Source: an uncultured Magnetococcales bacterium
GTDB taxonomy: Bacteria > Pseudomonadota > Magnetococcia > Magnetococcales > CAYFNE01
Length of the DNA: 64,000 bases
NCBI GenBank assembly: GCA_964344355.1
Contig: CAYFNE010000007.1
Location: 7,225-71,224, forward strand
Direction: 5' to 3'
The stretch's first letter is position 1; each line of letters begins with the position of its first letter. Shown here piece by piece: positions 10,392 to 29,186 of the stretch. A program made the position numbers and the translations under genes. The notes beneath the pieces were generated by a model. The model was not told the origin of the DNA. It saw only the letters and a program-made list of their open reading frames with translations, and searched no databases.

Positions 10392-10569
10392 TTGATTGTT
10401 TCCGTTCAACAATATGACCTTCCACCGGGGCGGTTCGGCAATATTTGCCCGGTTCCCCCCAGGAAATAGGTGCCCATCTCCCCAACAGGAAGGGGTTGGA
10501 ATATTTCAACGAGCCGCCGTGAAAAATACCGATACCGTACAAACCGATTCCAACCGTTCCCAAGGTGAA

Positions 10570-12573
10570 ATGCCGATCAAGGAGATGCTCAATCGGGCCA
10601 TCCACCTGCACCGCGAGGGAAACCCGCAGGAGGCGGTGCGGATTTATGATCAGTGTCTCTCCACCGGTAGCCAGGATGCCAATCTGCTCTATTTGCGCGG
10701 ATCGGCCGCCTTGGACCTCAGAAAACCTCAGGAGGCGGTCACTTTTCTCAGTGCCGCCGTGGCGAAACAACCCGGTGTGGTCACGTTTCAGGAGGCATTG
10801 GCCGCCGCCCTGTTGGCCAGTGGCAACCTGAATGCCGCCGCTCCCCGTTATGAGGAGGCCCTGCGGCTGGAACCCGAGAACGTTTCACTCCTGTTTCAAC
10901 TGGGATGCGTCCTGGTGGACCAGGGGAAAAACGAGGAAGCGGTCGAAAAACTGATCCTGGCGCTCAATCTCTTGAATCAAAGCCGGGATCCGATCAATCA
11001 ACGGCTCCGGGCCTTGGAGCCGAATCCCATCCGGATCGGCGCCTATAAAAAGTTGGCACAGATCAACGCCAAACTCGATAAACGGGTTTTTGAACAACAT
11101 TTTCTTCGGTTGCACAAACACCACGACCCCCGGGAAAAGGCGCCCAATGATTCCAGCTCCGTGGATATGCTCTTTTTGGATGCCAAAATGGCCCTGGAGA
11201 CCGCCCGAAAACAGAACCGCATTCAGCAGACGATTTATATCACCGCCTTGCAGGTTTGTTATTACCTGGGGGAGCCCATTGCCGATGCACCGGAAAATTT
11301 GATCTGCCTGCCGAGAAAAAAGTTGGCCGAATTTTTGACCACCACCCGGATACGGCGTCCGCGGGCGGTCTATTTCGATCCGGCGCGGCCCGATCAGGAG
11401 GCCATTGCCTGGAAAGTGGCCGAAATACTGGAATATATCTATCTGCTCAATCAAAAGACCGGAAACAATTATCTATTGCGAAATCGGGATCTTGAGCCGG
11501 TCCTCAAATCCGGCGAGCCGCTGCGTTTTTTTCTCGGGGCCTCGCGGCGGACGGTGGTGATGCAATACTGTTCGAGAAATCTGGCCAAGGCCCTGGAGCG
11601 GCAGGGTTGTCAGGTCAAATTTCTGATCGAGGAAAATGATCTGGAAGAGGTGGGCTTTCATACCGTCATGCAGGAATACCACGCCTTCAATCCCCACGCC
11701 GTGGTCAACATCAACCATCTCAACAATCTCTGGCTCCATCCCGACGTCTACAATATCACCTGGTGGCAGGATTTCATGCCGACCTTGACCGATCCCAAAC
11801 CCATGCCCTGGCGGGAGCGTGATATCGCCCTGGCCGCCGATCCGAATCTCATCCCCTATCTGGAAAAGACCGGCGCCAAGGATGTTCAGCGCCAGGAGTT
11901 TTGTGTGGATACCCATCTGTTCCGTAGCCGCACTCCCTGGCGGGAGCGTCGCAAGGTGGTGTTCATCGGCGGTTCCTATCTCCACCGTTTGAGCCGCTCT
12001 GCCGGTGAAATCGCAGTGATCCGGGGGGTTAATGAGAGAATGGAAGCCGGTGAACGGGTAACCCGGGAGTTTTTGCAGGAGATGGTTGATCGGTCCGGTC
12101 TGTCATTGCAACAAGGGTTCGAGTTGGGACCGGCCTTGACCTTTGTCGTACGTCAAACCGCCGTCGAATGGTCATGCCTGTTGGCCCCGGAAATGGGTCT
12201 GGAAGTGGAGGTGTATGGTCGGCTTTGGGAACAAAATCCCATTGTTAAACCCTATTTCAAGGGCGAACTGCCCCACGGCGAGGCGGTGGCCGAAGTCTAT
12301 GATCAGGCCAAATATGCCATTGCGGCCACCCCCTATGTGATCGATAGTCAACGGCTGTCGGAAATTTCCGCCTGCGGTGCGGTACCATTGATCTATGATT
12401 CCCGGCACCTGGCCCAAAAACCCCACTGGGACGAGGAGTGCCTGTGGTTTCACTCCCGGGAGACGTTCAAAGCCTGTTTGAACAAACGGCCGGTTAAGGA
12501 TCCCGGCATCATCGCCCGGACCCACTCCTATGATGCCTTCGCCCGGCGGATCCTGGAATGGGTGCGTCGATGA
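10570..12573 (+). CDS. TPR-repeat protein with C-terminal CgeB/GT1-like glycosyltransferase domain
   Basis: ORF track starts at TTG 10396. I prefer ATG 10570 (MPIKEMLNRAIHLHREGNPQEAVRIYDQCL, a typical TPR start) because the sigma-54-like element would place the transcription start near 10400. C-terminal half (RFFLGASRRTVVMQYCSRNLAKALERQGCQVKF...VVFIGGSY...PYVIDSQRLSEISACGAVPLIYD) looks like a CgeB-type glycosyltransferase. Confidence 0.75.
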   Translation: MPIKEMLNRAIHLHREGNPQEAVRIYDQCLSTGSQDANLLYLRGSAALDLRKPQEAVTFLSAAVAKQPGVVTFQEALAAALLASGNLNAAAPRYEEALRLEPENVSLLFQLGCVLVDQGKNEEAVEKLILALNLLNQSRDPINQRLRALEPNPIRIGAYKKLAQINAKLDKRVFEQHFLRLHKHHDPREKAPNDSSSVDMLFLDAKMALETARKQNRIQQTIYITALQVCYYLGEPIADAPENLICLPRKKLAEFLTTTRIRRPRAVYFDPARPDQEAIAWKVAEILEYIYLLNQKTGNNYLLRNRDLEPVLKSGEPLRFFLGASRRTVVMQYCSRNLAKALERQGCQVKFLIEENDLEEVGFHTVMQEYHAFNPHAVVNINHLNNLWLHPDVYNITWWQDFMPTLTDPKPMPWRERDIALAADPNLIPYLEKTGAKDVQRQEFCVDTHLFRSRTPWRERRKVVFIGGSYLHRLSRSAGEIAVIRGVNERMEAGERVTREFLQEMVDRSGLSLQQGFELGPALTFVVRQTAVEWSCLLAPEMGLEVEVYGRLWEQNPIVKPYFKGELPHGEAVAEVYDQAKYAIAATPYVIDSQRLSEISACGAVPLIYDSRHLAQKPHWDEECLWFHSRETFKACLNKRPVKDPGIIARTHSYDAFARRILEWVRR

Positions 12574-16558: not shown

Positions 16559-17663
16559 ACCGGCTATCAACTGGTGGAACGTCGAAGTCGGCGAGGAGGC
16601 CGCGCCGCGCATCGTCGATGCCATCGCCAAGGGTCATATCAGTCAGGGGCCGGTTACCGCCGAGTTCGAGAGCGCCCTGGCCGCTTTGTTGAACGTGCCG
16701 TATGCCGTCTGTACCACCAGCGGTACCATGGCCTTGACCATCTCCCTGTTGGCCCTGGGTATCCAGCCCGGTGATGAAGTGATCATGCCCGACCGGACCT
16801 GGGTGGCCACCGCCAACGCCGCCCTGTTGCTCGGCGCCCGGGTGCGATTGGTGGATGTGCTGCCCGACGGTCCGCCGATCATGGATCATGACCGGATCGA
16901 AGCGGCCATCACCCCGAAAACCCGGGCGATTCTGCCGGTACACCTGAACGGGCGGGCTGTGGCCATGGAGCCGGTATTGACCATCGCCGAAAAACATGGG
17001 TTGGGGGTGGTCGAGGATGCCTGTCCCTCCATCTGTTCCCGCCATCGGGGTCGTTTCGTCGGTACCTTCGGTCGATTCGGCTGTTTTTCCCTGGGCATGG
17101 CCAAACTGCTGGGGACCGGACAGGGGGGGGTGATCGTTTGCCACGATGAGGCCGATTACACCCTGCTGACCCGCATCCGCAACCAGGGATTGAGCGGTTC
17201 GGCCATGAATGAACGGCATGATGTCCGCGGTGGCAACTTTAAATTTACCGATATTCAGGCCGCCCTGGGATTGGCGCAACTCGGTTTGTTGGACAAACGC
17301 ATCGAACATCAAAAGGCCATCCACCAACTCTATCTGGATGGTTTGCGGGGACTCGATGCCGTCACCTTCGTACCGGTGGATATCGAGGCCGGTGAAATAC
17401 CCTTGCGTGCCGATGCCATGAGTCCGGACCGCGACCGTTTCGTGCGCGAGATGGCCGATCGGGGTATCGCCATCGCTCCCCAGTCGCCCAATTTGAGTGA
17501 CTTTCCCTTCATCGCCGACGATGGTCGAACATTTGCCAACGCCAAACGGTTTTCCGATACCATGCTCACCCTGCCGTCGGGTCCCGATCAACCGTTGGTC
17601 AATGTGGAAAAAACGGTTGAAACCATCCGCGCCATCGATCCCCTGTTCAAACGCGCATCGTGA
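16551..17663 (+). CDS. DegT/DnrJ/EryC1/StrS-family PLP-dependent aminotransferase
   Basis: In-frame ATG 16551 (MAEPAINWW...) within ORF-track 15921..17663, with an 8-nt overlap onto the upstream gene. Motifs TTSGTMALTISLLALGIQPGDEVIMP and FSLGMAKLLGTGQGG (PLP-lysine region). Confidence 0.9.
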   Translation: MAEPAINWWNVEVGEEAAPRIVDAIAKGHISQGPVTAEFESALAALLNVPYAVCTTSGTMALTISLLALGIQPGDEVIMPDRTWVATANAALLLGARVRLVDVLPDGPPIMDHDRIEAAITPKTRAILPVHLNGRAVAMEPVLTIAEKHGLGVVEDACPSICSRHRGRFVGTFGRFGCFSLGMAKLLGTGQGGVIVCHDEADYTLLTRIRNQGLSGSAMNERHDVRGGNFKFTDIQAALGLAQLGLLDKRIEHQKAIHQLYLDGLRGLDAVTFVPVDIEAGEIPLRADAMSPDRDRFVREMADRGIAIAPQSPNLSDFPFIADDGRTFANAKRFSDTMLTLPSGPDQPLVNVEKTVETIRAIDPLFKRAS

Positions 17664-19138
17664 CCCTCACCGGTAAAGCCGATTTGTCGATCTGGGGAGC
17701 GTCGGAGGGGACCGCTCCCCTGATCGGCCATCTGCGCCAGGCCGGTTTCCAGATCGGCCATATCGTCTCCCACGAGCGGCGCTGGCAGCGGATCGAAGGT
17801 ATCCAGGTGGTGCCGCCGGAGGCCTACCGGGCCACCATCGATTCGACCATACCGCTGGTCATCGACACCGGCGCCGGGGAGTCCGCCGACGGCCGATCGT
17901 TCCTGGCCGTCCAGGAGCGGATCCGGGATCGCTGGGGGTTGAACGACGTACAGATTCTTCATCCGCTGTTTCTCGCCGATCATCTGTTCCCCCGTTTCGC
18001 CGGCAAGGCCGCCATCATCGGTTGCAACCGTTCCGGCAGCACCTTTTTGTTTCATCTGTGCAAGGCCGTTTTGGATCTGCATCCACAACCGCCGGCCGAA
18101 GGCCTCCAGCGATTTTTGCAAACCAGTGCCCGGGACCATCTGCAAACCGTCGATCAACTCCTCACCGGGGCCTTCCAGGGGGAGGGGGCCGGGGAGGGGG
18201 CTGGCTATTGCGCCCAGGGGGCCACTCGTTTCGGAGGCATGGATTTTTTTGGCGCCGCCGAAAACCGGTTTTTCTTTCTCGCTCCGTTTCCCTGCCGGCG
18301 TTATCTGTTCGACACCGTGCATCGCAGCTATTCGCTGTTGGACCGGTCCATCGTCCAACGGTTGTCCCGGTCCGGTTACGCGCTGTTGACGCCATTGAGA
18401 AATCCACTGGATATCATCGTTTCCAACGCCTTCGAGCTGGAATATGTGTTTTTCCACATGTTTCCGGGCGGCGCCCTCGATCGGGTCGAGTCCGGTGTTC
18501 GAGAGGCGTATGGGCGTCGTTTTCTCGCCGATCCGGCCTGGTTCGAACAGATGGCGCTGTATGTGAAAAGGAACATGGAGGCCTATCTGGAACTGGCCGA
18601 TCACACCACCGGCATTCGCTATGAGATGCTGTTGAGTGATCCGCGGACCGCCATGCGCCGCCTGGCGTCGGCCCTCGACCGGGATGATGATGATGAAACC
18701 CTGGCAGAGATCTGGAAACGCCATGCCTTCAAGCCGCTGGCCGCCTTCAAATCCCACTATTTCCGGCCCGGGGAGGGCAAGTGGAAACAGTATCTGGGCC
18801 GCGAACAGCTGCGTATTCTGGCCGATCTGGACTATGGGGATCTGCTTGATGCCCTGGAGTATCCGCTGGACCTGTCCGGCGGCGGCGCCGACCTGCCGCC
18901 ATTGCCGCCGGTCCCCGGGGCCGATATGGCGCTGATGTTGGCGGTGCGGGATGCCATCTTCAGCCTGCAGTTCGATACCCGGTGCAGCCAAAACCATCCG
19001 GCGGTCACCGTTCAGATGGCGAAACCGCCGCTGTCCGGGCTGGGTTTCAGTTCCAACGATGGCCAATTTTTCAACCGGTTCCAAAGATTGAAAAGCGACG
19101 GCGCCTTTCAGGATCTGTATCAGGCGTTGACCGTTTGA
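17660..19138 (+). CDS. Sulfotransferase-family protein with extra ~120-aa N-terminal domain
   Basis: GTG start forming a GTGA overlap with the upstream stop. PAPS 5'-phosphosulfate-binding-type loop AAIIGCNRSGSTFLFHL. C-terminal FRPGEGKWKQYL is typical of sulfotransferases. Confidence 0.75.
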   Translation: MTLTGKADLSIWGASEGTAPLIGHLRQAGFQIGHIVSHERRWQRIEGIQVVPPEAYRATIDSTIPLVIDTGAGESADGRSFLAVQERIRDRWGLNDVQILHPLFLADHLFPRFAGKAAIIGCNRSGSTFLFHLCKAVLDLHPQPPAEGLQRFLQTSARDHLQTVDQLLTGAFQGEGAGEGAGYCAQGATRFGGMDFFGAAENRFFFLAPFPCRRYLFDTVHRSYSLLDRSIVQRLSRSGYALLTPLRNPLDIIVSNAFELEYVFFHMFPGGALDRVESGVREAYGRRFLADPAWFEQMALYVKRNMEAYLELADHTTGIRYEMLLSDPRTAMRRLASALDRDDDDETLAEIWKRHAFKPLAAFKSHYFRPGEGKWKQYLGREQLRILADLDYGDLLDALEYPLDLSGGGADLPPLPPVPGADMALMLAVRDAIFSLQFDTRCSQNHPAVTVQMAKPPLSGLGFSSNDGQFFNRFQRLKSDGAFQDLYQALTV

Positions 19139-20268: not shown

Positions 20269-20766
20269 TTACGGCCAGGCGGCCCGTTTCAAAAAGGCCG
20301 TCAACGCCGTCGGTTCCTCCGGTGACCATTCCGGGTAAAATCCTTCCGCCTTGCTGAAGGGGCCGGTGATGGTCTCGTGCAGGACCACCGGATCGGTTTC
20401 CGGGACACAGGCGTAACATTCTCCATGAGAGAGCCGGGTCAGGAACGGGCGGTTCCCTTGCCGTTCACCGAGGACGATGAGACGCCGGACGCTGCCGTCA
20501 TCGTTGAAAACCGGTACCCGCAGAACCCCTTCCAAAATCATGATGGAAACGCTCTTGTGACGATGACGGTGGGGACGGTCCAGGGAGCGCCGGGTGTGGA
20601 CGATGATCATCTCCTGGATGGGATCATCATGATCGGGATGCAGGCACAGTCGGGCCCGGCCCAACTCGGAGCTTCTGGCCACCTTTTTGATGTGCTCCAA
20701 CCGTTCCTGGTCGATCAGGGGCTGGGGTTGGGGGGTGAACAGCGCAACGGATGGAATGGTTGTCAT
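20269..20766 (-). CDS. WbuC-family cupin-fold protein
   Basis: 165 aa. GRARLCLHPDHDDPIQEMIIVHTRRSLDRPHRHRHKSVSIMILEG resembles the WbuC cupin found in glycan loci. ATGA overlap with the upstream gene (20763-20766). Confidence 0.7.
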   Translation of the reverse strand: MTTIPSVALFTPQPQPLIDQERLEHIKKVARSSELGRARLCLHPDHDDPIQEMIIVHTRRSLDRPHRHRHKSVSIMILEGVLRVPVFNDDGSVRRLIVLGERQGNRPFLTRLSHGECYACVPETDPVVLHETITGPFSKAEGFYPEWSPEEPTALTAFLKRAAWP

Positions 20767-23700
20767 GAAACGGCCCTGTGTTTCTCTGGTGATCCGGCCC
20801 CCCGCATTTGACGCAACAGGTTCAAATTGGGATGCTTCGAATCCAGGGATTCTATCATGAACAGGGCGGTTTCATAGGTTTTCATATCACCCGCCTGAAG
20901 AGCGGCCAGGGCCAGTATCGACAACAGTTCCGGATTGGTTACACCGAAGGCCACCCCTTTTTTCAACAGTTCCAAGGCTTCCCGTTCCTTCTTGAGGCTC
21001 ACCAGGATCTGTCCGAGTTGAATCCAGGCATCGATCTGGTGTTCATTCAGGTCGATCGCCTGGCGAAACGAGGTCATCGCTCCATTGAGGTCGCCGGCAT
21101 TCATGTGGGCGATGCCGAGTTGGGCATGGACCTCGGCGGCGTCGGGATGGTGTTTCAAGGCCTGCTTCAAGGTTCGCACGGCGGCGGTGGTGTTTTTCAG
21201 GCTGTTTTGCAGGGTGGCCAGGAACAGGGCCAGTTCGAGGTTTTCAGGGAACCGTTGCAGATGGTGCCGCAACTCGGATTCCGCCTTTTGCAGATGGCCG
21301 GTGCGGGTCAAATCGCTGGCTTGGGCGAGCAGGAGCCTGGCCACCAGGTCGGGGCTTTTTCCGAAACCGCACTCGGGTTTTTCAGGCAACAGGGGGACCT
21401 CTTTCCGGGTATCGTTGAACTGATCCCGCCAGGCTCGCCAGAGGATCTCCCGGATTTGCAACCATTCCTGCAGGGGATCTCCCGAGTCATGGGGCCAGGC
21501 TCGCCGCTCCATTTTCAGGCTGAAAAGCAGTGTTGGCAACATCAGGTGCCGCCATAGGCGCGCCCCGACCGGCGCTTTGTATCCCCAGGCCTTTCCTTTG
21601 GCCGCCAACAGCAATTTCAACCGTAGGCGGTCGAAGAGGGGGAGGTGTTTTTCATACCGCTCCTTGAGACTGACCGGGGAAAAGCCGGTTTGACGTTCGC
21701 TGCCGGTATAGGTGCGGTACCACCACTGTTTTCCATCGAAGGTGCTGTTGAGCAGGGAGTCGTTCCAGGAGAGACCGAGCCAGGAGGCGATCCGGCTCAT
21801 CGTTTCCCGGGGATTGGTTTTGAGATTTTCGAAGGTGACCGCCCGGGAACGGTGTGCATACTCCGGCAAGGTCGGGGGGCCGCCAAAAAAATGGTCGTTG
21901 AGCAACCAGGCCAGAATGTCTTGGGTAATGGCTGGTTTACCCGGTTTGACCAAGTGTTCGACATAGTGGGAAAAATGCGATCCCAGGGAGCGGATCGGCT
22001 GTCGCACGATATGGAGAAAGAGGGTATCGGGAAAATCGTGGGTCAACATCCGGCAACGATGCGGATTGACGTTGTGCATCTGGAAAAGGATCAACGGATT
22101 GGCCGGGGCCGTGCGTCCCAACGCTTCATGATAGGCCAGATGCACCGCCTGGAAAAATCGTTGGCGGTTTTGTTCTTCCTCCGGACCGAGATGGTCGAGC
22201 AGGGAACGGATGAACCGGACCGGGGAAACGCCGATGGGCTCGTTTTGATCGGGACCCATATGGGTAAAAGTTTCGCCGTTGGCGCCCGGGCAGGGGTTGC
22301 GGGTATCGAAAAACACTGAATAGAAGCGTATGAAGGAGACGATCCGTTGCTTGGGCGTCTCATCCTTTGTCTGCTCCCAAAAATCGAAAAATTTGGTGAA
22401 ATAGCCGGGTATGCTGAGCACGTCGGGGTGGGAATCGAGCAGGCTCTGCAAAAACAGCGTGCCGCTGTCGCCATAACAGACGATCGCCGCCACCCGTTCC
22501 GGCAGGATGACTTCCGGGTTTTTCCCGGTGTCCATCCGGTCCGTTGCGGAGGGGGACCGCTCTTTGAACAGGTTGAGGGTCGGGTGTTTGGGATGGAGCA
22601 GATCGATCATGAACCGGCCGATATCATAGGTCGGTCCATCATCGTTTTCCCGGGCGGCCAGGGTCAGGTGGATCCAGGCATCCAGATTGTCGACGCCATG
22701 CCGAACCGCCCGTTCCAGTTGTTCCTGGGCGGCCCTGTTTTGGCCCCGGCCAAGCAGAACCTGACCGAGGATGAGGTGCGCCTTGGTCTGGCAGGGATCG
22801 ATTTCGAGGGCTTTTTCACAGGCGGCGGCTGCGGCGACCGGGTCTTGTGGTAATTTTCCATCCTGGGACATGTGGATGGTTGCGCACATGACGTGGAGAT
22901 CGGCACTGTCGGCGGCGAGGGAGAGGGTGGTTTTCAGCGTTTCCAAAGCCGCCTTGGGACTGCCGACCGACAGGTAGAGCGTGGCCAACAACCGGGCCAG
23001 TTGGGGATTTTTGGAAAAGTGATGAAAATGGGGGGTGAGCGCGGATATGGCTTCCGTCCGGCGGTTCGCCGCCATCAATGGCTCGATCTGCTTGATCAGG
23101 CTGCTCACCACCTGATCGGAAGCCTGTTCGAAACCTCGGCCCGGTTGTTCCTCCAGCAACTTCAACTCCGGACGGGTTTCCCGGAACAGATCCTTCCAGG
23201 TCTGCCACAGGATCTGCCGGATGATGAACCAGTCGGCCAATGCGCGGTTACTGTAATTGGGCCAGGCCAGGGTTTCCATGCGGAAGGAGAACAGGAGGAA
23301 CGGAAACAACATCGTTCGGACCCACCGCCAGTTTTGCCAGGCGGATGTCGGATAGTTCCAGTACCGAAGTTTGGCCGACAGGAGAATTTTCAACCGCAGC
23401 CGGTCGAACGGGGTATAGTAGGTGTCATGTTTGCGCTTGAGGGCGGTATCGGAGAAGCCGGTGATCTCCTCTCCCTTTGCGGCCTTGAACCAATATTGCA
23501 AACCATCCAGGGTGCTTTCCAACAGACTGTCGTTCCAGGAGATACCCAACCAATTGCAGACCTTTCGCAGGGTTTCCCGGGGGTTTTTCTTGAGATCCTC
23601 GAGCCGTACCGCCCGGGAGCGATCCGTATAACCGGATAAAACCGGTTTTCCTCCCATTAGAATGGCGTTCATCACCCAGGCGAGGTTATCGGCAAAGATG

Positions 23701-24269
23701 GGTCTTTCATCGGAGTTGCTGCGGTAATGGGAGCCCAGGGACTGGATGGGGTCCCGAATCATGTGCAGAAAAAGGGTGTTTGGAAAATCGCGTACCAGTT
23801 CCCGGGCTCGGCCCGGATGGGGGTTGTGCAGGGAATAGACCAGGACAGGGTTTTCGATGGGGGGACGTCCCAGGGCTTCGTGATAGGCCAGATGCAGCGC
23901 CTGGAACAGAAGTTTGCGCGATACCCGGGGGGTATCGCCGAGCAATCGTTTCATCGCCGGGAAAAAGATCAGTGGATCGATGCCCAGTACCTGGTCCCGG
24001 TTCGGCCCGAGGTTGGTGAACTCCCCACCGACCGGGCACTTGTTTCGCGCATCGAAAAAGGCGGCGAAGTACCGGGTGAGCGCCCCGATCGCATCCTTGG
24101 ACGACAGCCCCTTGGCCTCGTCCCAGAATCGGCAGAAAAACGTTTCCAGATAACCGGGAAGGATCAACAGTTCAGGGTGACCATCCAACAGGCTGTGCAT
24201 GAAATAGGAGCCGCTACGGCCATAGAACATGATCGCAACCACCCGTTCCGGCAAGCTTGATGATGTCAT
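20763..24269 (-). CDS. Tandem-duplicated [sulfotransferase-like + TPR] protein, 1168 aa
   Basis: Two colinear ~583-aa modules, with LPERV at residues 6 and 589. Each has a P-loop-like sulfotransferase N-terminus (MFYGRSGSYFMHSLLDGHPELL / VCYGDSGTLFLQSLLDSHPDVL), a shared HLAYHEALGR, and C-terminal TPR repeats. Confidence 0.8.
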   Translation of the reverse strand: MTSSSLPERVVAIMFYGRSGSYFMHSLLDGHPELLILPGYLETFFCRFWDEAKGLSSKDAIGALTRYFAAFFDARNKCPVGGEFTNLGPNRDQVLGIDPLIFFPAMKRLLGDTPRVSRKLLFQALHLAYHEALGRPPIENPVLVYSLHNPHPGRARELVRDFPNTLFLHMIRDPIQSLGSHYRSNSDERPIFADNLAWVMNAILMGGKPVLSGYTDRSRAVRLEDLKKNPRETLRKVCNWLGISWNDSLLESTLDGLQYWFKAAKGEEITGFSDTALKRKHDTYYTPFDRLRLKILLSAKLRYWNYPTSAWQNWRWVRTMLFPFLLFSFRMETLAWPNYSNRALADWFIIRQILWQTWKDLFRETRPELKLLEEQPGRGFEQASDQVVSSLIKQIEPLMAANRRTEAISALTPHFHHFSKNPQLARLLATLYLSVGSPKAALETLKTTLSLAADSADLHVMCATIHMSQDGKLPQDPVAAAAACEKALEIDPCQTKAHLILGQVLLGRGQNRAAQEQLERAVRHGVDNLDAWIHLTLAARENDDGPTYDIGRFMIDLLHPKHPTLNLFKERSPSATDRMDTGKNPEVILPERVAAIVCYGDSGTLFLQSLLDSHPDVLSIPGYFTKFFDFWEQTKDETPKQRIVSFIRFYSVFFDTRNPCPGANGETFTHMGPDQNEPIGVSPVRFIRSLLDHLGPEEEQNRQRFFQAVHLAYHEALGRTAPANPLILFQMHNVNPHRCRMLTHDFPDTLFLHIVRQPIRSLGSHFSHYVEHLVKPGKPAITQDILAWLLNDHFFGGPPTLPEYAHRSRAVTFENLKTNPRETMSRIASWLGLSWNDSLLNSTFDGKQWWYRTYTGSERQTGFSPVSLKERYEKHLPLFDRLRLKLLLAAKGKAWGYKAPVGARLWRHLMLPTLLFSLKMERRAWPHDSGDPLQEWLQIREILWRAWRDQFNDTRKEVPLLPEKPECGFGKSPDLVARLLLAQASDLTRTGHLQKAESELRHHLQRFPENLELALFLATLQNSLKNTTAAVRTLKQALKHHPDAAEVHAQLGIAHMNAGDLNGAMTSFRQAIDLNEHQIDAWIQLGQILVSLKKEREALELLKKGVAFGVTNPELLSILALAALQAGDMKTYETALFMIESLDSKHPNLNLLRQMRGAGSPEKHRAVS

Positions 24270-24843: not shown

Positions 24844-25596
24844 ATGAAAACCCAATGGGAATACACCGATCTGGCGGATGCCTATCTGAAACGGCCCGAT
24901 TATTCGGATGAGGCCATTCAGGCCATGTTGAACCATTCCGGTCTGGACGATTCCGCCCATGTCTGTGATGTGGGGGCGGGTGTGGCGCATTTGACCATCA
25001 AGCTGGCCGAACAGGGTTTCCAGGTCGATGCGGTGGAACCCAACGATGCCATGCGCAGCAACGGTATCCGGCGCACGGAACGGTTCGCCAATATCAACTG
25101 GTTCGAAGGGACCGGCGAAGAGACCGGTCGTCCGGACAACGGTTATCATCTGGTGACCTTCGGTTCTTCGTTCAATGTTTGCGACCGGTCCAAGGCGTTG
25201 TTGGAGACCCGGCGCATCTTGAAACCGCGGGGCTGGTTCGCCTGCATGTGGAATCATCGCGATTTGAAGGACCCCATTCAAAAATCGATCGAGGGGATCA
25301 TCGCTTCGCAGATCGACGGTTATGATTATGGCAGCCGTCGTGAGGATCAAACGGAGGTGATCGATCAAAGCGGTCTGTTCGGCGAGGTGTTCAAGATCGA
25401 AGGGGCGGTTTCCCACCGACAGACCATTGCCGACTGTGTGGAGGCCTGGCGCTCCCACGCCACCCTGCAACGCCAGGCCGGCGACCATTTCGGCAGGATC
25501 GTCGACGAGATCGAAAAAATGTTGTTGGGATTGGACGAACCGAACATCATCATTCCCTATACCACCCGGCTGTGGATGGCGCAGTTGCGGGCGTAA
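24844..25596 (+). CDS. Class I SAM-dependent methyltransferase
   Basis: ORF track 24721..25596. Start set to ATG 24844 (MKTQWEYTDLADAYL), preceded by GAGGAA. Motif I VCDVGAGVAHLTIKLAEQGF. Post-I and motif II region ILKPRGWF. Confidence 0.85.
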   Translation: MKTQWEYTDLADAYLKRPDYSDEAIQAMLNHSGLDDSAHVCDVGAGVAHLTIKLAEQGFQVDAVEPNDAMRSNGIRRTERFANINWFEGTGEETGRPDNGYHLVTFGSSFNVCDRSKALLETRRILKPRGWFACMWNHRDLKDPIQKSIEGIIASQIDGYDYGSRREDQTEVIDQSGLFGEVFKIEGAVSHRQTIADCVEAWRSHATLQRQAGDHFGRIVDEIEKMLLGLDEPNIIIPYTTRLWMAQLRA

Positions 25597-25624
25597 CCAT
25601 CCGGCATCGGTTGGCCGGTTGGTT
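25595..25624. terminator. Hairpin filling the spacer between convergent genes (possible bidirectional terminator)
   Basis: AACCA-T-CCGGC atcggttg GCCGG-T-TGGTT: 10 bp of stem with one T.T mismatch. It occupies the 27-nt gap between the stops at 25596 and 25624. No clear U-tract. Confidence 0.35.
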
Positions 25625-26172
25625 CAGGGTTCGGCGTTCACCGCCCGGGGGGGATCCAGCCGTCGACGGGTTTCAAGAATCCGGTCGGCCTGCTCGGACG
25701 GTGATCGGCTGCCATCGTTGTCCAGAATCAGGTCCGGTCGTTTCGGCGCCTGGTAGGCCAAATCGACGCCCATGAGATTGTTCAACTCGCCATCGCGGTT
25801 TTTCTGATAGAGCCGTTTGGAATCGCGGGCGGTGAGGACTGCCATGGGCGCCCGGACATAGACCTCGAAATAGTCCCGGACATTGTCCCGGTTCCAGGCC
25901 TGCACCTCATGGAACAGGGAGATGGTGGCGCAGACCACATCGATCCCCTGATCGACCAGATAGTGGCAGAGCCGGGCATATTTCATGGCCAACCGCAATC
26001 GCTCCTCCGGCGAGTAGGAGCCGGAAACGGCGAACACCCGTCGCAGTTCATCGCCATCGAGCATGACCACATTCGGTTTTTCCGCCTTCAGGGCGGCATA
26101 CAGTTCTCGGCCGATGGTGGTCTTGCCGGCCCCGGAAAGACCGGTCAACCAAAACAAAGTCGCCATAACCAC
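25624..26172 (-). CDS. cysC: Adenylylsulfate (APS) kinase
   Basis: 182 aa. LFWLTGLSGAGKTTIGRELY...VVMLDGDELR...FEVYVRAP is typical CysC. Confidence 0.9.
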   Translation of the reverse strand: MVMATLFWLTGLSGAGKTTIGRELYAALKAEKPNVVMLDGDELRRVFAVSGSYSPEERLRLAMKYARLCHYLVDQGIDVVCATISLFHEVQAWNRDNVRDYFEVYVRAPMAVLTARDSKRLYQKNRDGELNNLMGVDLAYQAPKRPDLILDNDGSRSPSEQADRILETRRRLDPPRAVNAEP

Positions 26173-26175
26173 TCT

Positions 26176-26871
26176 TCATCCACAGTTGAAGAAAGTCCGC
26201 AGCAACCGGCCATCCGCCGCCTCGAACGGCCGGTTGCGCTCCGGATGCCACATGATGCCCAGCACGCGTCCATCGACCTGTTCCAGGGCTTCGATGGTGC
26301 CGTCCTCCGCCCGTGCCGAAACCCGGAACTCCCGGTGGTTCATCTCATTTAAGACATGGTTGTGATAGGAGTTCACCCCCGCCGGACGATCGAGGAGGGA
26401 TCGAAAATGCCCGGTCTCGTCGGCGATGAGTCGATGATTTTGCCCAACATGACCCGCCTTTCGTTTCACGAAGAATCCCAGCCGCCAAGCCAAAAACTGC
26501 ATGCCCCGGCAGACGCCCAACAGCGGCAATCCCCGCTCCCGGGCCAGTTCCAGCAGTTGGCCCTCCTGCTGATCCCGTTGCCGGGAGAGGGGGTCATCGT
26601 TCAATGCGCTCAGATCGTTGCCTCCGGAAAGAATGATGCCGACCGGTTGCAGGGTGTTCACATAATGAACCGCCTCCACCCCCGGCAACAGGGGTACCGG
26701 CAACAGGTCCAGTGAGGCCAGAAAAGCCCCCCAATTTTCATCCAGGCAGGCCCGTGTTTCCGGATAGGTGTCGTTTCCGACCAATCGTTGACTGATCAAT
26801 ACCGCTTTCAATTCAACACCATGACCGTTTTTTCGGAACAGTTCAGCTCCAGCAGGGAGGCGCGGCTCCAA
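26176..26871 (-). CDS. Class I glutamine amidotransferase-like / peptidase C26 (gamma-glutamyl hydrolase family)
   Basis: GVCRGMQFL nucleophile elbow and MWHPE motif. The ATG at 26871 would overlap the upstream gene by 64 nt. An in-frame TTG at 26811 (LKAVLISQRL...) gives a TTGA start/stop overlap and may be the true start. Confidence 0.8.
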   Translation of the reverse strand: MEPRLPAGAELFRKNGHGVELKAVLISQRLVGNDTYPETRACLDENWGAFLASLDLLPVPLLPGVEAVHYVNTLQPVGIILSGGNDLSALNDDPLSRQRDQQEGQLLELARERGLPLLGVCRGMQFLAWRLGFFVKRKAGHVGQNHRLIADETGHFRSLLDRPAGVNSYHNHVLNEMNHREFRVSARAEDGTIEALEQVDGRVLGIMWHPERNRPFEAADGRLLRTFFNCG

Positions 26872-29186
26872 TTATCGAAATATCGTTTGCCACAACCGAT
26901 CACCGATGGCAATCCCAGTTCGGCGGCGCGGATGGCCATGTGCGAGTTGCAACCGCCATACTGGGTGATCAAACCACCGATGTTGCGGCTGAAAATCCAG
27001 TCATAACCCGGGTCGGCACTGGATATGCAGACGATTTTTCCCTGTAGATCCGATTCCAACAGTTCCGGCTCGGTGACCGTCGCCCCCTGGACCCGGGAGA
27101 GGGTGATGAAGTTCGGTTCGCTGCCATTGAGGCAAAAATCGTAGATGTCTTCGGGGCGGAAGATCACCGGTGGCAGATCGATTGCCTGGGAGTGGTTGAA
27201 GGAACGCTTGTTGCGGGCGATGTTATCCCGCAACCGTTCTCCCAGGCCCTGTTCCCCGAGGCTGGCATAGAGGTCCAATACCACCTGAATGTCCAGATAG
27301 GAGAGTTCATCGGCGTTGAGGCCATGGGGTTGGCCGATCTCTTCGAGCAGGGAGAGCACGGCGCTCAAGTGTCGCGTGAAAACGAACTTGCCATATTCCC
27401 GGCCCTCGATGGCCCGGCGGATGAACGCCAGCAAATGGTCCACCGAGACATCCAAACCGTTGGTGACCAGCAGATGGGCGATGTGCTCACGCTGCGGTTG
27501 CGAAAAGGAGAACTCTTTTTCCGGATCGGAACCCTCGTTGGCGCCGATCCCGCCCGCACCCGGCTCGGTCAGGCTGGGAAAATATATCTCGAAGGCCTCA
27601 TCATAGCGTTTGGAGAGAATGTTGTAGGTGCCGGGCCGCAGATGCCCGTAACGAGCGAGAAAATCGGCCGTCGACAGGCCGCCGGTGCGCAACAGCCGCA
27701 CATCGTCGGCCAGGTCCCGGGAGACGGTTTTCAGGGTGCGCATGTAGGCCGACCGTTCCTCCTCGCTGCACACCCCCATGGCCACGAAGGCGTCCAAAAA
27801 CTGTACGGCGATGAAACCGGCCCGGGCCAGCCCGGCGAACGGCAGGGTGCCGTAGCGTTTGCAGTCCTCCATCAACCAGTAGAGTTTTTCCACCTGCGAC
27901 ATGGGGCCTTCCATCACCTCGCCATAGCGCCGTTCCAGATGCTCGACCTTGGCCAGATCGCGTTGAAAATGGCCATCCTTGGAGTGGATGATGCCGTTGG
28001 TGACCTTGAGCAGTCCAAACTTGATCCGGTCCAGTTCGTCCTCACTGAAACCGTGATCGAGCAGTTTTTTGATGCGTTGCCCCAGGCCGGGATAATAACA
28101 GGTGTAGAGAATTTTGAACTCCACCTTGTCATGGTCGCTGGGCTGGCGGGTGAAACGATCCAGATAATAATCCACCAGCTTGTAGGCCAGTTTGTCGTCG
28201 ATCTCTTTGGGGATGAAGGAGTTGAAGGTGACCCGCACATCGATGTAGGGCTTGCCGAACAACGCGATCAACAGCGGGAAACCGCGCATGTTGCGATAGC
28301 CGTAGTTGTCCCGTTGGTAGGCCCAGATGGAGTCGGTGATCAACTCCTTGTAGAGCGACAGCGCCAGGGGCCGGGGGTTGGTACCGATGATTTCGGCCGG
28401 GTTCCAGTCGGGCATGTTGCCGAGAATGGTGCGCGATCCCACCAGATCGGGGTGGGGCAGGTTGAGCTTTTCGATCCGACCGCGAATTTTGTTCAGATAT
28501 CCTTCCAGACGGTCGATCGGCACCGGGGGATGCTTGGAACCGACCACCATGGGCCGTACCTGCAACAGGTGCAGCCGGTCCTGGTCATCGACGGCGAACT
28601 CAATGTCCAGATGTTCAAAGGCGAACCGTTTTTCAAGCTCATCCGCCGTTTCGATCAACCGTTGCAACCACGGTTCGGGGATGGGAATTTCCGCCCGTTT
28701 GAACCGGACCCGGGTGGTGAACTCACTCATGCCCCCGGATGTCACGCCATCGGTGGAACCCAACTGATCATCATAACTGAGCACATAATAAGGAGACAGG
28801 GTGTCCAGGTCGCTGGTGAACAGCACCCCGGCCAGGCGGACCGGCTGGATCTGTTTTTGTACCAATACCTGGTGATTGGCGTCGCCGTCGCCATAGGAGG
28901 CGATGACCCGGTTGATGGCGGCGTGCAGACGTTCCATGTCATCGGTGGGGATGCCGAGCAGGGAGAGATACCGTCCCGCCTGGGAGGCGTTCACGCCATC
29001 CTCGCCCAGGGCGGAACTGCGCACGGCCACCTCCTGGCCGGCGAATTGCCGGTGGAGTTTTTTCAATACGATGCCGGGCGTCTCACGCCATTGACCGACG
29101 CTGAAACAGGCCAATGGTGGAATATCGGCAACCGTCAGTTTGCCTTCCAGTGACTGTAACGTCTCCGCCTTGCTGCCAAATTTCAT
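26808..29186 (-). CDS. PEP-synthase/PPDK-like dikinase (ATP-grasp PPDK_N domain + C-terminal phospho-His swivel domain, no PEP/pyruvate TIM barrel)
   Basis: ORF track 26808..29360. Start set to ATG 29186 (MKFGSKAETLQSLEGKL) with AGGAGG 6 nt upstream. C-terminal GGLITQYGGCNSHMAIRAAELGLPSVIG is the mobile-domain His motif. Confidence 0.85.
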   Translation of the reverse strand: MKFGSKAETLQSLEGKLTVADIPPLACFSVGQWRETPGIVLKKLHRQFAGQEVAVRSSALGEDGVNASQAGRYLSLLGIPTDDMERLHAAINRVIASYGDGDANHQVLVQKQIQPVRLAGVLFTSDLDTLSPYYVLSYDDQLGSTDGVTSGGMSEFTTRVRFKRAEIPIPEPWLQRLIETADELEKRFAFEHLDIEFAVDDQDRLHLLQVRPMVVGSKHPPVPIDRLEGYLNKIRGRIEKLNLPHPDLVGSRTILGNMPDWNPAEIIGTNPRPLALSLYKELITDSIWAYQRDNYGYRNMRGFPLLIALFGKPYIDVRVTFNSFIPKEIDDKLAYKLVDYYLDRFTRQPSDHDKVEFKILYTCYYPGLGQRIKKLLDHGFSEDELDRIKFGLLKVTNGIIHSKDGHFQRDLAKVEHLERRYGEVMEGPMSQVEKLYWLMEDCKRYGTLPFAGLARAGFIAVQFLDAFVAMGVCSEEERSAYMRTLKTVSRDLADDVRLLRTGGLSTADFLARYGHLRPGTYNILSKRYDEAFEIYFPSLTEPGAGGIGANEGSDPEKEFSFSQPQREHIAHLLVTNGLDVSVDHLLAFIRRAIEGREYGKFVFTRHLSAVLSLLEEIGQPHGLNADELSYLDIQVVLDLYASLGEQGLGERLRDNIARNKRSFNHSQAIDLPPVIFRPEDIYDFCLNGSEPNFITLSRVQGATVTEPELLESDLQGKIVCISSADPGYDWIFSRNIGGLITQYGGCNSHMAIRAAELGLPSVIGCGKRYFDNWSRASLLELNCSEKTVMVLN

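What the first reader, a model, noticed from the sequence alone, without database searches (positions are those of the whole stretch)
20763..24269. 1168-aa protein is an internal tandem duplication of a [sulfotransferase-like + TPR] module, with the second PAPS-loop basic residue lost
Seen: residues ~1-583 and ~584-1168 (boundary near nt 22520) are colinear. Examples are LPERVVAIMFYGRSGSYFMHSLLDGHPELL vs LPERVAAIVCYGDSGTLFLQSLLDSHPDVL, and ALHLAYHEALGR vs AVHLAYHEALGR. Further pairs are DFPNTLFLHMIRDPIQSLGSH vs DFPDTLFLHIVRQPIRSLGSH, and both halves end in KHPxLNL after TPR repeats. In half 2 the Arg of the G-R-S-G-S loop is Asp (G-D-S-G-T). Known: the Lys/Arg in the 5'-phosphosulfate-binding loop of sulfotransferases contacts PAPS and contributes to catalysis. 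Inference: either a two-site enzyme placing two sulfates, or an active half paired with a pseudo-enzyme half acting as a substrate-binding module. Together with 17660..19138 the island has three sulfotransferase-like domains.
Basis: partly seen in the sequence, partly recalled or inferred. Interest (0 to 1): 0.55.

Follow-up and report, generated by a model that had tools for sequence, protein, structure and literature searches.

The report
Fused double phosphoramidate-transferase-like enzyme, labelled sulfotransferase
One 1168-residue protein is two joined copies of a sulfotransferase-fold-plus-TPR module, and its gene neighbours suggest that it transfers a phosphoramidate group from a PAPS look-alike donor rather than sulfate.

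Summary
The minus-strand ORF 20763-24269 encodes 1168 aa made of two colinear [sulfotransferase-fold + TPR] modules (42% identity over 576 aa, E 1e-143). Module 2 has Asp601 where module 1 has Arg18, in the loop that binds the donor's 5' group.

- **Origin.** The ~590-aa module exists as single genes in Magnetococcales, and one relative carries two separate adjacent copies in a syntenic locus. The window protein is therefore a fusion of tandem paralogues. Only 2 of 154 family representatives have two modules.
- **The lost Arg.** About 13% of family representatives lack Arg/Lys at this position. One of them is fused to the donor-making kinase. The loss alone does not mark a dead enzyme, although Asp is unique to module 2, which also has further unusual changes near the nucleotide site.
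- **The donor.** The neighbouring 'APS kinase' belongs to a conserved cassette: glutamine-kinase-like protein, C26 amidohydrolase, CysC-like kinase and methyltransferase. This matches the Campylobacter jejuni Cj1415-Cj1420 pathway, which makes 3'-phospho-CDP-amidate. Cassette genes lie within 10 kb in 11 of 12 family contexts examined, and 25 of 80 cassette loci hold a family member.

The likely function is phosphoramidate transfer, not sulfation. This is inferred and has not been shown biochemically.

The parts
20763..24269 (-). Whole gene: 1168-aa two-module protein (ST-fold + TPR, twice)
   Evidence: ORF list and translation; self-alignment E 1e-143; identical protein on 4 contigs
23145..24260 (-). 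Module 1 sulfotransferase-fold domain (residues 4-375), canonical for its family
   Evidence: Family profile A1 matches residues 4-374, 517 bits; Pfam PF13469 52.9 bits; departs from the family at only 1 of 37 columns that are >=80% conserved
24207..24221 (-). Module 1 loop G17-R18-S19-G20-S21, equivalent to the 5'-phosphosulfate-binding loop
   Evidence: Aligns with RSG[ST] of OLS sulfotransferase 4gox and TPST2; Arg in 132 of 152 family domains with a residue at this column
22560..23102 (-). Module 1 TPR region (residues ~390-570), ending KHPTLNL
   Evidence: TPR_19, TPR_14 and TPR_16 hits; colinear with the module 2 TPR and with single-module P0048
22506..22559 (-). Junction linker (residues 571-588: ERSPSATDRMDTGKNPEV). 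It contains Met579, a possible relic start codon of a once separate second gene
   Evidence: Sequence read directly; the relative L002 has two separate genes with a 113-nt gap at this position. The relic-start reading is inference
21375..22511 (-). Module 2 sulfotransferase-fold domain (residues 587-965), with a remodelled donor site
   Evidence: Profile A1 matches residues 586-964, 522 bits; Pfam PF13469 44.1 bits; AF2 model of residues 584-1168 has pLDDT 93.6 and pTM 0.90. It departs at 5 of 37 conserved columns (D601, T667, R760, F813, N815) and has T812 where 154 of 156 domains have R/K. It keeps H732, R756, P758, S764 and E814
22458..22472 (-). Module 2 loop G600-D601-S602-G603-T604
   Evidence: Asp here is unique among the 152 aligned family domains with a residue at this column; the loop motif, where it could be extracted in the ~60 closer relatives, reads G-R-[SAG]-G-[ST] in all but one, P0217 (GTSGS)
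20802..21353 (-). Module 2 TPR region (residues ~973-1156), canonical TPRs, ending KHPNLNL
   Evidence: TPR_1, TPR_2, TPR_14 and TPR_19 hits; Foldseek top matches are TPR proteins such as MamA, OGT and consensus TPR designs
20269..20766 (-). Downstream gene overlapping the stop codon by 4 nt: WbuC-family cupin (165 aa), probably co-transcribed
   Evidence: TIGR04366 100.8 bits, above cut-off 42; DUF6016 in precomputed Pfam
24844..25596 (+). SAM methyltransferase (UbiE/Methyltransf_11 type), a cassette member comparable to Cj1419/Cj1420
   Evidence: Pfam; homologues in 59 of 80 cassette loci; 34% identical to the methyltransferase in L002
25624..26166 (-). CysC-like kinase of the cassette type, a probable CDP-amidate 3'-kinase (Cj1415-like) rather than an APS kinase
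   Evidence: PRK05541 194 bits (above 127) but TIGR00455 apsK 120.7 bits, below cut-off 138.7; median 47% identity to 69 cassette kinases, 53% to the kinase fused to P0003, 31% to E. coli CysC; present in 68 of 80 cassette loci
26176..26811 (-). C26 glutamine-amidotransferase-like hydrolase (Cj1417-like gamma-glutamyl-CDP-amidate hydrolase)
   Evidence: NF045546 E 2e-40, 138.9 bits, below cut-off 250; Pfam Peptidase_C26; present in 71 of 80 cassette loci
26808..29186 (-). PPDK_N + PEP-utilizer protein (Cj1418-like L-glutamine kinase family)
   Evidence: NF004508 938.8 bits, above cut-off 501; Pfam; 45% identical to the L002 homologue; 573 relatives found among genome representatives
17660..19138 (+). 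Third sulfotransferase-fold protein of the island (492 aa, Sulfotransfer_1 type), not a member of the A1 family
   Evidence: Pfam PF00685 E 7.5e-9; no A1-profile hit in the window other than the 1168-aa ORF
10396..12573 (+). TPR + Glyco_trans_1_2 protein (725 aa), context only: the same architecture recurs next to cassettes elsewhere
   Evidence: Pfam; two such genes in L086 and three Glyco_trans_1_2 genes (no TPR on record) in L092

Best explanation
The gene encodes a head-to-tail fusion of two paralogous ~585-aa modules. Each module is a sulfotransferase-fold nucleotide-dependent group transferase followed by a TPR domain. The modules arose by tandem gene duplication; related Magnetococcales carry the module as one gene or as two adjacent genes, and here the two became one reading frame.

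The donor is most likely not PAPS. It is probably its structural analogue 3'-phospho-cytidine-5'-diphosphoramidate, made by the adjacent cassette: a Cj1418-like glutamine kinase, a Cj1417-like hydrolase and a Cj1415-like CysC-type kinase, with a cytidylyltransferase encoded elsewhere. Each module would bind the donor through the conserved 3'-phosphate motif (R172/S180 and R756/S764) and the glycine-rich loop. It would then transfer the phosphoramidate group to a hydroxyl of a glycan or glycoprotein, and the neighbouring SAM methyltransferase would O-methylate the product, giving a MeOPN-type decoration.

The TPR domains probably hold the acceptor protein or partner enzymes, as the TPR domain of FlmG holds flagellin. 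Module 1 is canonical. Module 2 keeps the fold and the invariant residues but has a remodelled donor pocket (R->D601, Q->R760, R->T812, L->F813, D->N815). I take it to be still functional, serving a second acceptor position or a variant donor, in the way C. jejuni uses two paralogous MeOPN transferases for two sugars.

Shown: the duplication, the fold, the synteny and the family-cassette linkage. Inferred: the donor identity, the acceptor, and activity of module 2.
For: Duplication and fold.

Module as a unit: single-module proteins P0048, P0178, P0152, P0159 and P0187 (586-595 aa, Magnetococcales) are colinear end to end with each half. L002 and L003 have two adjacent ST-TPR genes, 113 nt apart, flanked by homologues of the window's C26 hydrolase, methyltransferase and PPDK-like gene.

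Cassette identity: NF004508 at 939 bits, NF045546 at E 2e-40 and PRK05541 at 194 bits. In 80 genome loci found with the PPDK-like protein, the kinase occurs in 68, the C26 hydrolase in 71, NTP_transf_3 in 73 and the methyltransferase in 59. The roles of Cj1415-Cj1418 in making CDP-phosphoramidate 3'-phosphate are taken from PMC11800397.

Family-cassette linkage: an A1-family protein lies within 10 kb in 25 of 80 cassette loci, against 0-17 of 80 for other island genes. Going the other way, 11 of 12 informative contexts of family members contain cassette genes: the window, L002, L005, L069, L086, the P0005 locus, L089, L090, L091, L092 and L093; the exception is L004.

Fusion evidence: P0003 is an ST domain fused to the cassette kinase inside a complete cassette operon. 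CysQ-like Inositol_P genes in L086 and L093 fit a 3',5'-bisphosphonucleotide by-product.

No sulfate activation: no cysD, cysN or sat in the 64-kb window.

Two transferases per cassette is a recurring state: L002, L090, the two-module P0032, and C. jejuni Cj1421/Cj1422 with different acceptor sugars.

Module 2 is not decaying: its mean distance to outgroups is 1.22, against 1.16 for module 1 and 1.22-1.30 for single-module relatives, and its AF2 model has pLDDT 93.6.
Against: - No biochemical data exist for any member of this family, so the donor assignment rests on gene neighbourhood alone.
- The window has no homologue of the cassette cytidylyltransferase (an HMM of 74 sequences gave no hit at E <= 10). 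The pathway is therefore incomplete within these 64 kb.
- Homology to the genetically proven MeOPN transferases Cj1421/Cj1422 could not be tested or shown.
- The hit to the Cj1417-type model is below its curated cut-off.
- All sequence models that hit the domain are named sulfotransferase, and the nearest solved structures are true PAPS enzymes.
- An acidic Asp601 at the donor loop, together with T812 and N815, is unique within its own subfamily and could mean loss of catalysis in module 2.
Confidence: 0.5

Rival explanations
1. Same donor chemistry (phosphoramidate from the PAPS analogue), but module 2 is a non-catalytic pseudo-enzyme. It would be a former subunit of a homodimer-like pair, now fused, that only binds nucleotide or acceptor, or scaffolds module 1.
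For: Module 2 departs from the family at 5 of 37 columns that are >=80% conserved, against 1 for module 1. It also has T812 where 154 of 156 domains have R/K. The changes sit in the three nucleotide-site motifs. Asp at the loop position is unique among 152 domains, and close relatives read G-R-[SAG]-G-[ST] in all but one (P0217, GTSGS). Own knowledge: in TPST2 and cytosolic sulfotransferases the equivalent Arg/Lys contacts the leaving-group oxygen, and mutating it cripples catalysis.
Against: The Arg is dispensable in about 13% of family representatives, including the kinase-fused P0003. More distant cassette-linked members also vary at the R222 and D225 positions, for example KLENLH in L027. 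Module 2 keeps H732, R756, P758, S764 and E814 and evolves no faster than its relatives. It carries Arg at two positions (852, 859) where the Arg-less subclade has gained conserved Arg; this is suggestive only.
Confidence: 0.25
2. One reading: a genuine PAPS-dependent sulfotransferase with two catalytic or binding sites, supplied with PAPS by the neighbouring APS kinase.
For: Pfam Sulfotransfer_3 and Sulfotransfer_1 hits. The closest solved structures are PAPS enzymes: OLS ST 4gox at E 1e-11, TPST2 at 1e-8 and CurM ST at 8e-8. A CysC-family kinase lies 1.4 kb away. The cytidylyltransferase needed for the phosphoramidate donor is missing from the window.
Against: The kinase is of the cassette type and fails the curated APS-kinase equivalog cut-off. 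It sits directly beside the glutamine-kinase-like and C26 hydrolase genes, as in 68 of 80 cassette loci. No sulfate adenylyltransferase or sulfate permease is present, unlike a genuine sulfation cluster such as C. jejuni HS:19 cysD-cysN-permease-cysC-sulfotransferase. The family is cassette-linked in 11 of 12 contexts.
Confidence: 0.17
3. The fusion is an artefact. Two separate adjacent genes would have been joined by a sequencing or assembly error that removed a stop codon.
For: A relative has two separate genes at the same place. Met579 in the linker looks like a former start codon. All records may derive from one sample.
Against: The identical 1168-aa product is on record from NCBI, ENA and Logan assemblies, on 4 contigs. 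The linker is in frame for 18 codons without a stop or a homopolymer run. A second, independent two-module protein (P0032) exists.
Confidence: 0.04

Closest known systems
Campylobacter jejuni O-methyl phosphoramidate (MeOPN) system: Cj1415-Cj1418 donor synthesis, Cj1419/Cj1420 methyltransferases, Cj1421/Cj1422 transferases
   Same: The window has homologues of the glutamine-kinase-type protein, the C26 hydrolase, the CysC-like kinase and a SAM methyltransferase next to the transferase candidate. Two paralogous transferases per locus, as with Cj1421 (GalfNAc) and Cj1422 (heptose), have a parallel in the two modules (PMC11800397).
   Different: No cytidylyltransferase in the window. The transferase candidate here is a sulfotransferase-fold + TPR protein. 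Its relation to Cj1421/Cj1422 (592-603 aa in strain 81-176; PMC13317227) is unknown and could not be tested. The two transferases are fused into one polypeptide. The organism is a probable Magnetococcales MAG, not a Campylobacter, and there is no kps capsule locus.
PAPS-dependent sulfotransferases of the Sulfotransfer_3 type with solved structures: OLS ST (4gox), CurM ST (4gbm), human TPST1/TPST2 (3ap1, 5wri)
   Same: Same fold by profile (E 1e-11 to 4e-7). The glycine-rich loop R-S-G-[ST] aligns, as do the R...S 3'-phosphate motif and the xYE[DQ]L strand. The strand order in the AF2 model agrees.
   Different: The Glu base of TPST2 and CurM ST (own knowledge: 8 residues after the conserved His of the HP motif) has no conserved counterpart here. 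An invariant His148/His732 sits where cytosolic sulfotransferases have their catalytic His. The domain has a ~120-residue C-terminal extension and a TPR domain. The genomic context points to a cytidine-based donor.
TPR-tethered protein-modifying transferases: FlmG flagellin glycosyltransferase, O-GlcNAc transferase, SPINDLY
   Same: A TPR array is joined to a catalytic domain. In FlmG the TPR domain binds the protein acceptor and the catalytic domain sets donor specificity (bioRxiv 10.1101/2022.03.25.485807). TPR + Glyco_trans_1_2 and TPR + GT41 genes lie in the same loci. Foldseek matches the TPR part to OGT, SPY and MamA.
   Different: The catalytic domain is of the sulfotransferase fold, not GT-B. 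The TPR is C-terminal here, whereas most family members have it N-terminal (89 of 154). No acceptor is known.
Other members of the same family annotated 'sulfotransferase' or 'TPR repeat protein', including the two-module P0032
   Same: The same ST-like domain: 775 representatives at E <= 1e-30. P0032 also has two ST domains that are each other's closest relatives, and it sits directly upstream of a complete cassette.
   Different: P0032 is ordered TPR-ST-TPR-ST and keeps Arg in both loops. The window protein is ordered ST-TPR-ST-TPR, with Asp in the second loop. It has no relative above 50% identity anywhere in the databases searched.

Membership tests
Sulfotransferase fold (Pfam PF13469 Sulfotransfer_3) | Profile match above the curated gathering score | tested here: met
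   Half 1 scores 52.9 bits and half 2 scores 44.1 bits against a cut-off of 27. Profile hits to solved sulfotransferases at E 1e-11 to 4e-7.
Sulfotransferase fold (Pfam PF13469 Sulfotransfer_3) | 5'-phosphosulfate-binding loop with a basic residue ([KR]-x-G-[ST]) | tested here: inconclusive
   Met in module 1 (G-R18-S-G-S). Not met in module 2 (G-D601-S-G-T). The basic residue is absent in about 13% of family representatives, so it does not define this family.
Sulfotransferase fold (Pfam PF13469 Sulfotransfer_3) | 3'-phosphate-binding motif (Arg ... Ser eight residues later) | tested here: met
   R172/S180 and R756/S764. R is invariant and S is present in 151 of 156 family domains. The motif aligns with the TPST2 motif.
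Sulfotransferase fold (Pfam PF13469 Sulfotransfer_3) | PAPS is the donor and sulfate is transferred | not testable with these tools
   Context argues against it: cassette-type kinase, no sulfate adenylyltransferase, and cassette linkage of the family.
MeOPN-type phosphoramidate system (C. jejuni Cj1415-Cj1422) | L-glutamine kinase homologue (PPDK_N + PEP-utilizer, Cj1418 type) | tested here: met
   NF004508 at 938.8 bits, above cut-off 501, with the matching Pfam architecture. That this model is the Cj1418 family is inferred from its constant company with the other three cassette genes.
MeOPN-type phosphoramidate system (C. jejuni Cj1415-Cj1422) | gamma-glutamyl-CDP-amidate hydrolase (Cj1417 type) | tested here: inconclusive
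   NF045546 at E 2e-40 but 138.9 bits, below cut-off 250. The gene is in the expected position, and homologues occur in 71 of 80 cassette loci.
MeOPN-type phosphoramidate system (C. jejuni Cj1415-Cj1422) | CysC-like CDP-amidate 3'-kinase (Cj1415 type) | tested here: met
   Cassette-type kinase: median 47% identity to 69 cassette kinases against 31% to E. coli CysC. It passes PRK05541 and fails the apsK equivalog cut-off. Substrate specificity itself was not tested.
MeOPN-type phosphoramidate system (C. jejuni Cj1415-Cj1422) | CTP:phosphoglutamine cytidylyltransferase (Cj1416 type) | tested here: not met
   No hit in the 64-kb window by tblastn or by an HMM of 74 cassette sequences at E <= 10. 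It is present in 73 of 80 cassette loci and in relative L002, which in turn lacks the kinase. It may lie elsewhere in the genome.
MeOPN-type phosphoramidate system (C. jejuni Cj1415-Cj1422) | Transferase homologous to Cj1421/Cj1422 | tested here: inconclusive
A profile search from cassette-linked ST-like proteins found no Campylobacter protein. NCBIfam has no model that hits the domain.
TPR-tethered protein-modifying enzymes (FlmG/OGT type) | TPR array joined to a catalytic transferase domain | tested here: met
   TPR hits in both modules. One rigid module in the AF2 model, pTM 0.90. Foldseek matches to OGT, SPY and MamA TPRs.
TPR-tethered protein-modifying enzymes (FlmG/OGT type) | The TPR domain binds the protein acceptor | not testable with these tools
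   Analogy only.
Pseudo-enzyme domain (module 2) | Loss of residues that are indispensable for catalysis in the family | tested here: inconclusive
   The family-invariant residues are kept (H732, R756, P758, E814). Changes occur at strongly but not universally conserved positions (D601, R760, T812, F813, N815).

The most novel reading that the evidence does not exclude
This 'sulfotransferase' family (thousands of database clusters, mostly TPR-linked) may in fact be the cognate phosphoramidate transferases of a MeOPN-type cassette that is widespread across bacterial phyla. That would explain why the phosphoramidate donor is 3'-phosphorylated: it mimics PAPS so that a sulfotransferase-fold enzyme can use it. 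The window protein would be a rare fused pair in which module 2 has rebuilt its donor pocket. Asp601 would replace the Arg that normally faces the transferred group, and could accept a hydrogen bond from the P-NH2 group or select a modified donor. One polypeptide would then install two different decorations.
Probability: 0.45. Interest if true: 0.75.

Novelty: new variant of a known kind. Interest (0 to 1): 0.6.

Why it matters
If the reading is right, three consequences follow.

1. A large family now auto-annotated as sulfotransferases would need re-annotation as phosphoramidate (P-N group) transferases.
2. MeOPN-like glycan decoration, studied almost only in Campylobacter, would be widespread. 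573 relatives of the glutamine-kinase-type gene were found among species-representative genomes, from Acidobacteriota to Lachnospiraceae and Magnetococcales.
3. The 3'-phosphate on the phosphoramidate donor would get a structural rationale.

The fused two-module protein is also a natural test case. Module 1 serves as an internal control for asking what the loop Arg does, and whether a duplicated transferase subunit drifts toward a new specificity or toward a pseudo-enzyme.

Tried and rejected
- **Single-sequence AlphaFold of the full protein:** pLDDT 44, unusable.
- **Foldseek of the good half-2 model:** the listed top 50 matches are almost all TPR-containing proteins, so it gave no independent structural match for the ST domain.
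- **'APS kinase nearby means PAPS supply':** my first reading, rejected after the cassette analysis.
- **Half 2 evolving much faster:** a first NJ tree gave branch lengths of 0.53 against 0.30. A relative-rate comparison did not uphold this (1.22 against 1.16).
- **Order of duplication and speciation:** unresolved. Bootstrap support is 20% for h1+h2 and 43% for h1+(P0048,P0178).
- **Compensating basic residues:** the Arg-less subclade gained Arg at columns 262 and 268, and half 2 has Arg at both. However, the close relative P0048 also appears to have Arg at the second of these (my reading of the alignment) while keeping Arg18. This is suggestive only.
- **Link to Cj1421/Cj1422:** the last large homology search, from cassette-linked ST-like proteins, found no Campylobacter hit. 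NCBIfam has no model for the domain. No paper in the library connects MeOPN transferases with a sulfotransferase fold. My recollection that Cj1421/Cj1422 are TagF-like was not borne out: the CGPTase in PMC8949473 is a different gene.
- **Organism name:** exact look-ups returned no source names. Magnetococcales is inferred from the nearest homologues.
- **Campylobacterales cassette loci without an A1 hit:** one (L028) has a Sulfotransfer_1-type protein in the same position. Others have unrelated neighbours such as asparagine synthase or B12-dependent radical SAM enzymes.

Full report
**1. The observation**

The finding lies on the minus strand. ORF 20763..24269 starts with ATG and encodes 1168 aa. 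Residues 1-583 and 584-1168 align colinearly over 576 columns at 42% identity, E 1e-143. Both halves end in KHPxLNL, and the loop G-R18-S-G-S of half 1 is G-D601-S-G-T in half 2. Each half alone passes Pfam's gathering score for Sulfotransfer_3 (52.9 and 44.1 bits against 27) and carries TPR hits.

**2. Fold**

A profile of the domain (alignment A1) hits solved PAPS-dependent sulfotransferases: OLS ST 4gox at E 1e-11, TPST2 at 1e-8, CurM ST at 8e-8 and TPST1 at 2e-7 to 4e-7. The glycine-rich loop, the R...S 3'-phosphate motif and the xYE[DQ]L strand all align.

AlphaFold with a 62-sequence alignment gives a confident model of half 2 (pLDDT 93.6, pTM 0.90). It shows strand-loop-helix at the N-terminus, parallel strands ending at H732 and R756, and a helical TPR array.

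**3. The module is a pre-existing unit, and the protein is a fusion of tandem paralogues**

An exhaustive profile search finds a large family: 7064 representatives at E <= 1e-3 and 775 at E <= 1e-30. Among the 154 representatives analysed:
- 89 carry a long N-terminal extension (TPR where examined, e.g. P0005-P0008) in front of the ST domain;
- 56 are stand-alone;
- 9 have a C-terminal extension.

Single-module proteins of 586-595 aa (P0048, P0178, P0152, P0159, P0187) come from Magnetococcales. The four aligned in full (P0048, P0178, P0152, P0159) are colinear with each half from end to end.

In Magnetococcales assembly GCA_015231175.1 (L002), two such genes sit side by side, 113 nt apart. 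They are flanked by homologues of the window's C26 hydrolase, methyltransferase and PPDK-like gene. The window protein corresponds to that pair joined by an 18-codon linker, which still contains a Met (residue 579) where a second start codon would be.

Only two of the 154 representatives have two ST domains: this protein and P0032 (TPR-ST-TPR-ST, 1732 aa). The pairs h1/h2, P0152/P0159 and the two domains of P0032 are each most similar, or nearly so, to their own partner. The two-copy state therefore arose repeatedly, or has been homogenised. Whether the h1/h2 duplication predates the split from P0048/P0178 is unresolved.

**4. What the lost Arg means**

In the family alignment the Arg18 column reads R 132, S 9, P 4, T 3, I 2, N 1, D 1. 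The single Asp is half 2. A subclade with the motif QNYG[SPTI]SG lacks the Arg altogether. It includes P0003, whose ST domain is fused to a kinase inside a complete cassette operon. Cassette-linked relatives also show PGSTGS, MSNSGS and GPGGN loops.

Half 2 is nevertheless odd for its own subfamily. In all but one of the close relatives whose loop could be read the motif is G-R-[SAG]-G-[ST]; the exception is P0217, GTSGS. Of 37 columns conserved at >=80%, half 1 departs at one and half 2 at five (D601, T667, R760, F813, N815). Half 2 also has T812 where 154 of 156 domains have R or K. Most of these changes fall in the three motifs that line the nucleotide site in sulfotransferases.

Half 2 keeps the invariant H732, R756, P758 and E814, and S764. 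It folds confidently and is no more divergent from outgroups than its relatives (1.22 against 1.16-1.30). It looks remodelled rather than decayed. Whether it is catalytic cannot be decided here.

**5. The context changes the chemistry**

Next to the gene lie:
- a methyltransferase (24844-25596, + strand);
- a CysC-like kinase (25624-26166, - strand);
- a C26 amidohydrolase (26176-26811, - strand);
- a PPDK_N/PEP-utilizer protein (26808-29186, - strand).

NCBIfam places the last in NF004508 (939 bits) and the hydrolase nearest to gamma-glutamyl-CDP-amidate hydrolase (E 2e-40, below cut-off). The kinase falls in subfamily PRK05541, while it fails the APS-kinase equivalog cut-off.

These are the enzyme types of the C. 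jejuni pathway Cj1418, Cj1417 and Cj1415. [quoted passage not shown] That donor is a cytidine analogue of PAPS (own knowledge).

Using the PPDK-like protein as a probe, 573 relatives were found in species-representative genomes. Counts for the 80 best loci are given below.

| Gene type | Loci with a homologue (of 80) |
|---|---|
| Window-type kinase | 68 |
| C26 hydrolase | 71 |
| NTP_transf_3 cytidylyltransferase | 73 |
| Methyltransferase | 59 |
| A1-family sulfotransferase-like protein | 25 |
| Other island genes (control) | 0-17 |

The A1-family gene often abuts or overlaps a cassette gene.

The window kinase is 47% identical (median) to the cassette kinases, 53% to the kinase fused to P0003 and 31% to E. 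coli CysC. The window contains no cysD, cysN, sat or sulfate permease, unlike a true sulfation cluster.

**6. The reverse test**

I looked up the genomic context of family members chosen without regard to context. Cassette genes lie within 10 kb in the following cases:
- the window itself;
- P0152/P0159 (L002);
- P0178 (L005), whose stop codon overlaps the start of the PPDK-like gene;
- P0205 (L069);
- P0003 (L086), the ST-kinase fusion in a full cassette with a CysQ-like phosphatase;
- P0005, a TPR-ST protein followed by kinase, methyltransferase, PPDK-like gene, hydrolase and cytidylyltransferase;
- P0203 (L089);
- P0210 (L090), which has two ST-like paralogues;
- P0225 (L091);
- P0185 (L092), with DegT, radical-SAM/SPASM and Glyco_trans_1_2 genes as in the window;
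- P0032 (L093), the other two-module protein.

Only P0048 (L004) lacks the cassette, and P0007 sits too near a contig end to tell. Eleven of twelve informative contexts is far beyond chance.

The most economical reading is that this sulfotransferase-fold family is the transferase that consumes the cassette's PAPS-like donor. The CysQ-like genes in two loci fit a 3',5'-bisphosphonucleotide by-product (inference).

**7. Proposed mechanism**

Each module binds 3'-phospho-CDP-amidate through its 3'-phosphate motif and glycine-rich loop. The invariant His (148/732) sits where cytosolic sulfotransferases have their catalytic base and could activate the acceptor hydroxyl. The phosphoramidate is transferred, and a neighbouring methyltransferase completes a MeOPN-like group.

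The TPR domain, rigidly packed on the catalytic domain (pTM 0.90), would hold a protein acceptor or partner enzymes. FlmG offers a precedent, since its TPR domain binds flagellin. TPR-glycosyltransferase genes recur in these loci.

Two transferases per cassette recur: L002, L090, P0032, and C. jejuni Cj1421/Cj1422, which modify different sugars. I therefore favour two modules for two acceptor positions, with module 2 carrying a rebuilt donor pocket. All of this is inferred. Only the architecture, the conservation pattern and the gene linkage are shown.

**8. Caveats**

- The window has no cytidylyltransferase homologue. Relative L002 has one but lacks the kinase, so the cassette appears dispersed in this order, but the gap remains.
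- Homology to the genetically proven MeOPN transferases could not be tested.
- No member of the family has been assayed.
- The organism is inferred to be a Magnetococcales MAG only from nearest homologues.

**9. Verdict**

The structural interpretation (tandem duplication, sulfotransferase fold) is supported. The pseudo-enzyme inference is weakened but not excluded. The sulfate/PAPS chemistry is probably wrong.

The protein is a rare fused variant of a widespread, unstudied class that is likely mis-annotated. I rate it as a new variant of a known kind, with interest 0.6.

Noticed in passing
window 9561-10187 (+): A solitary ORF (208 aa) matches the type I-E CRISPR protein Cse2/CasB (TIGR02548 45.8 bits, above cut-off 28.5; Pfam CRISPR_Cse2 E 4e-10). 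None of the other ORFs scanned in the window matched a cas family, and I did not search for a CRISPR array.
   Followed up: no
window 49975-53364 (-): A 1129-aa ORF with no Pfam hit at all. It lies between response-regulator/GGDEF and DnaJ-like genes.
   Followed up: no
window 13569-15500 (+); also L028 5067-7457: The island's B12-binding radical SAM enzyme is closest to P-methyltransferase families (PhpK family TIGR04479 E 2.5e-27; Sden_1168 family NF038361 E 6e-24; both far below cut-off). A B12-dependent radical SAM gene also sits beside a Sulfotransfer_1-type gene and the cassette in a Sulfuricurvum locus. This may point to further chemistry on the phosphorus group.
   Followed up: partly
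L086 7217-7969 and L093 9477-10262: CysQ-like Inositol_P phosphatase genes are embedded in two cassette operons. This would fit removal of a 3',5'-bisphosphocytidine by-product, as CysQ removes PAP after sulfation.
   Followed up: no
L045, L060, L061, L063, L066, L067, L071, L073, L076, L077, L082-L085 (mostly Acidobacteriota-type MAGs), around locus position 9.3-12.3 kb: The match to the window kinase falls in the same stop-to-stop ORF as the PPDK-like gene (single ORFs of ~2.9-3.3 kb, against 2.3 kb for the PPDK-like gene alone), which suggests an N-terminal kinase fusion. It would be another fusion tying the CysC-like kinase to the phosphoramidate pathway.
   Followed up: no
window 24256-24244 and 22501-22489 (- strand): Both modules begin with the same 13-nt string GCCGGAACGGGTG (encoding PERV), despite only 42% protein identity overall.
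   Followed up: no
window 37265-38200 (+): A YhgA-like transposase (Transposase_31 + DUF4351) lies just beyond the biosynthetic island, which spans roughly 10.4-36.6 kb. The island is flanked by housekeeping genes (ClpA/B-like, RecN-like, RecQ-like, glutamate synthase), so it may be a mobile or variable region.
   Followed up: no
L037 4914-7550 (+): In a Campylobacterales MAG, an 879-aa Sulfatase-family (PF00884) protein lies directly upstream of the cassette-linked ST-like gene. That family includes phosphoethanolamine-type transferases.
   Followed up: no
L090 770-2077 and 3108-4427: A marine (TARA) contig carries two separate ST-like paralogues (435 and 439 aa) beside one complete cassette. 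This is another instance of two transferases per donor pathway.
   Followed up: partly
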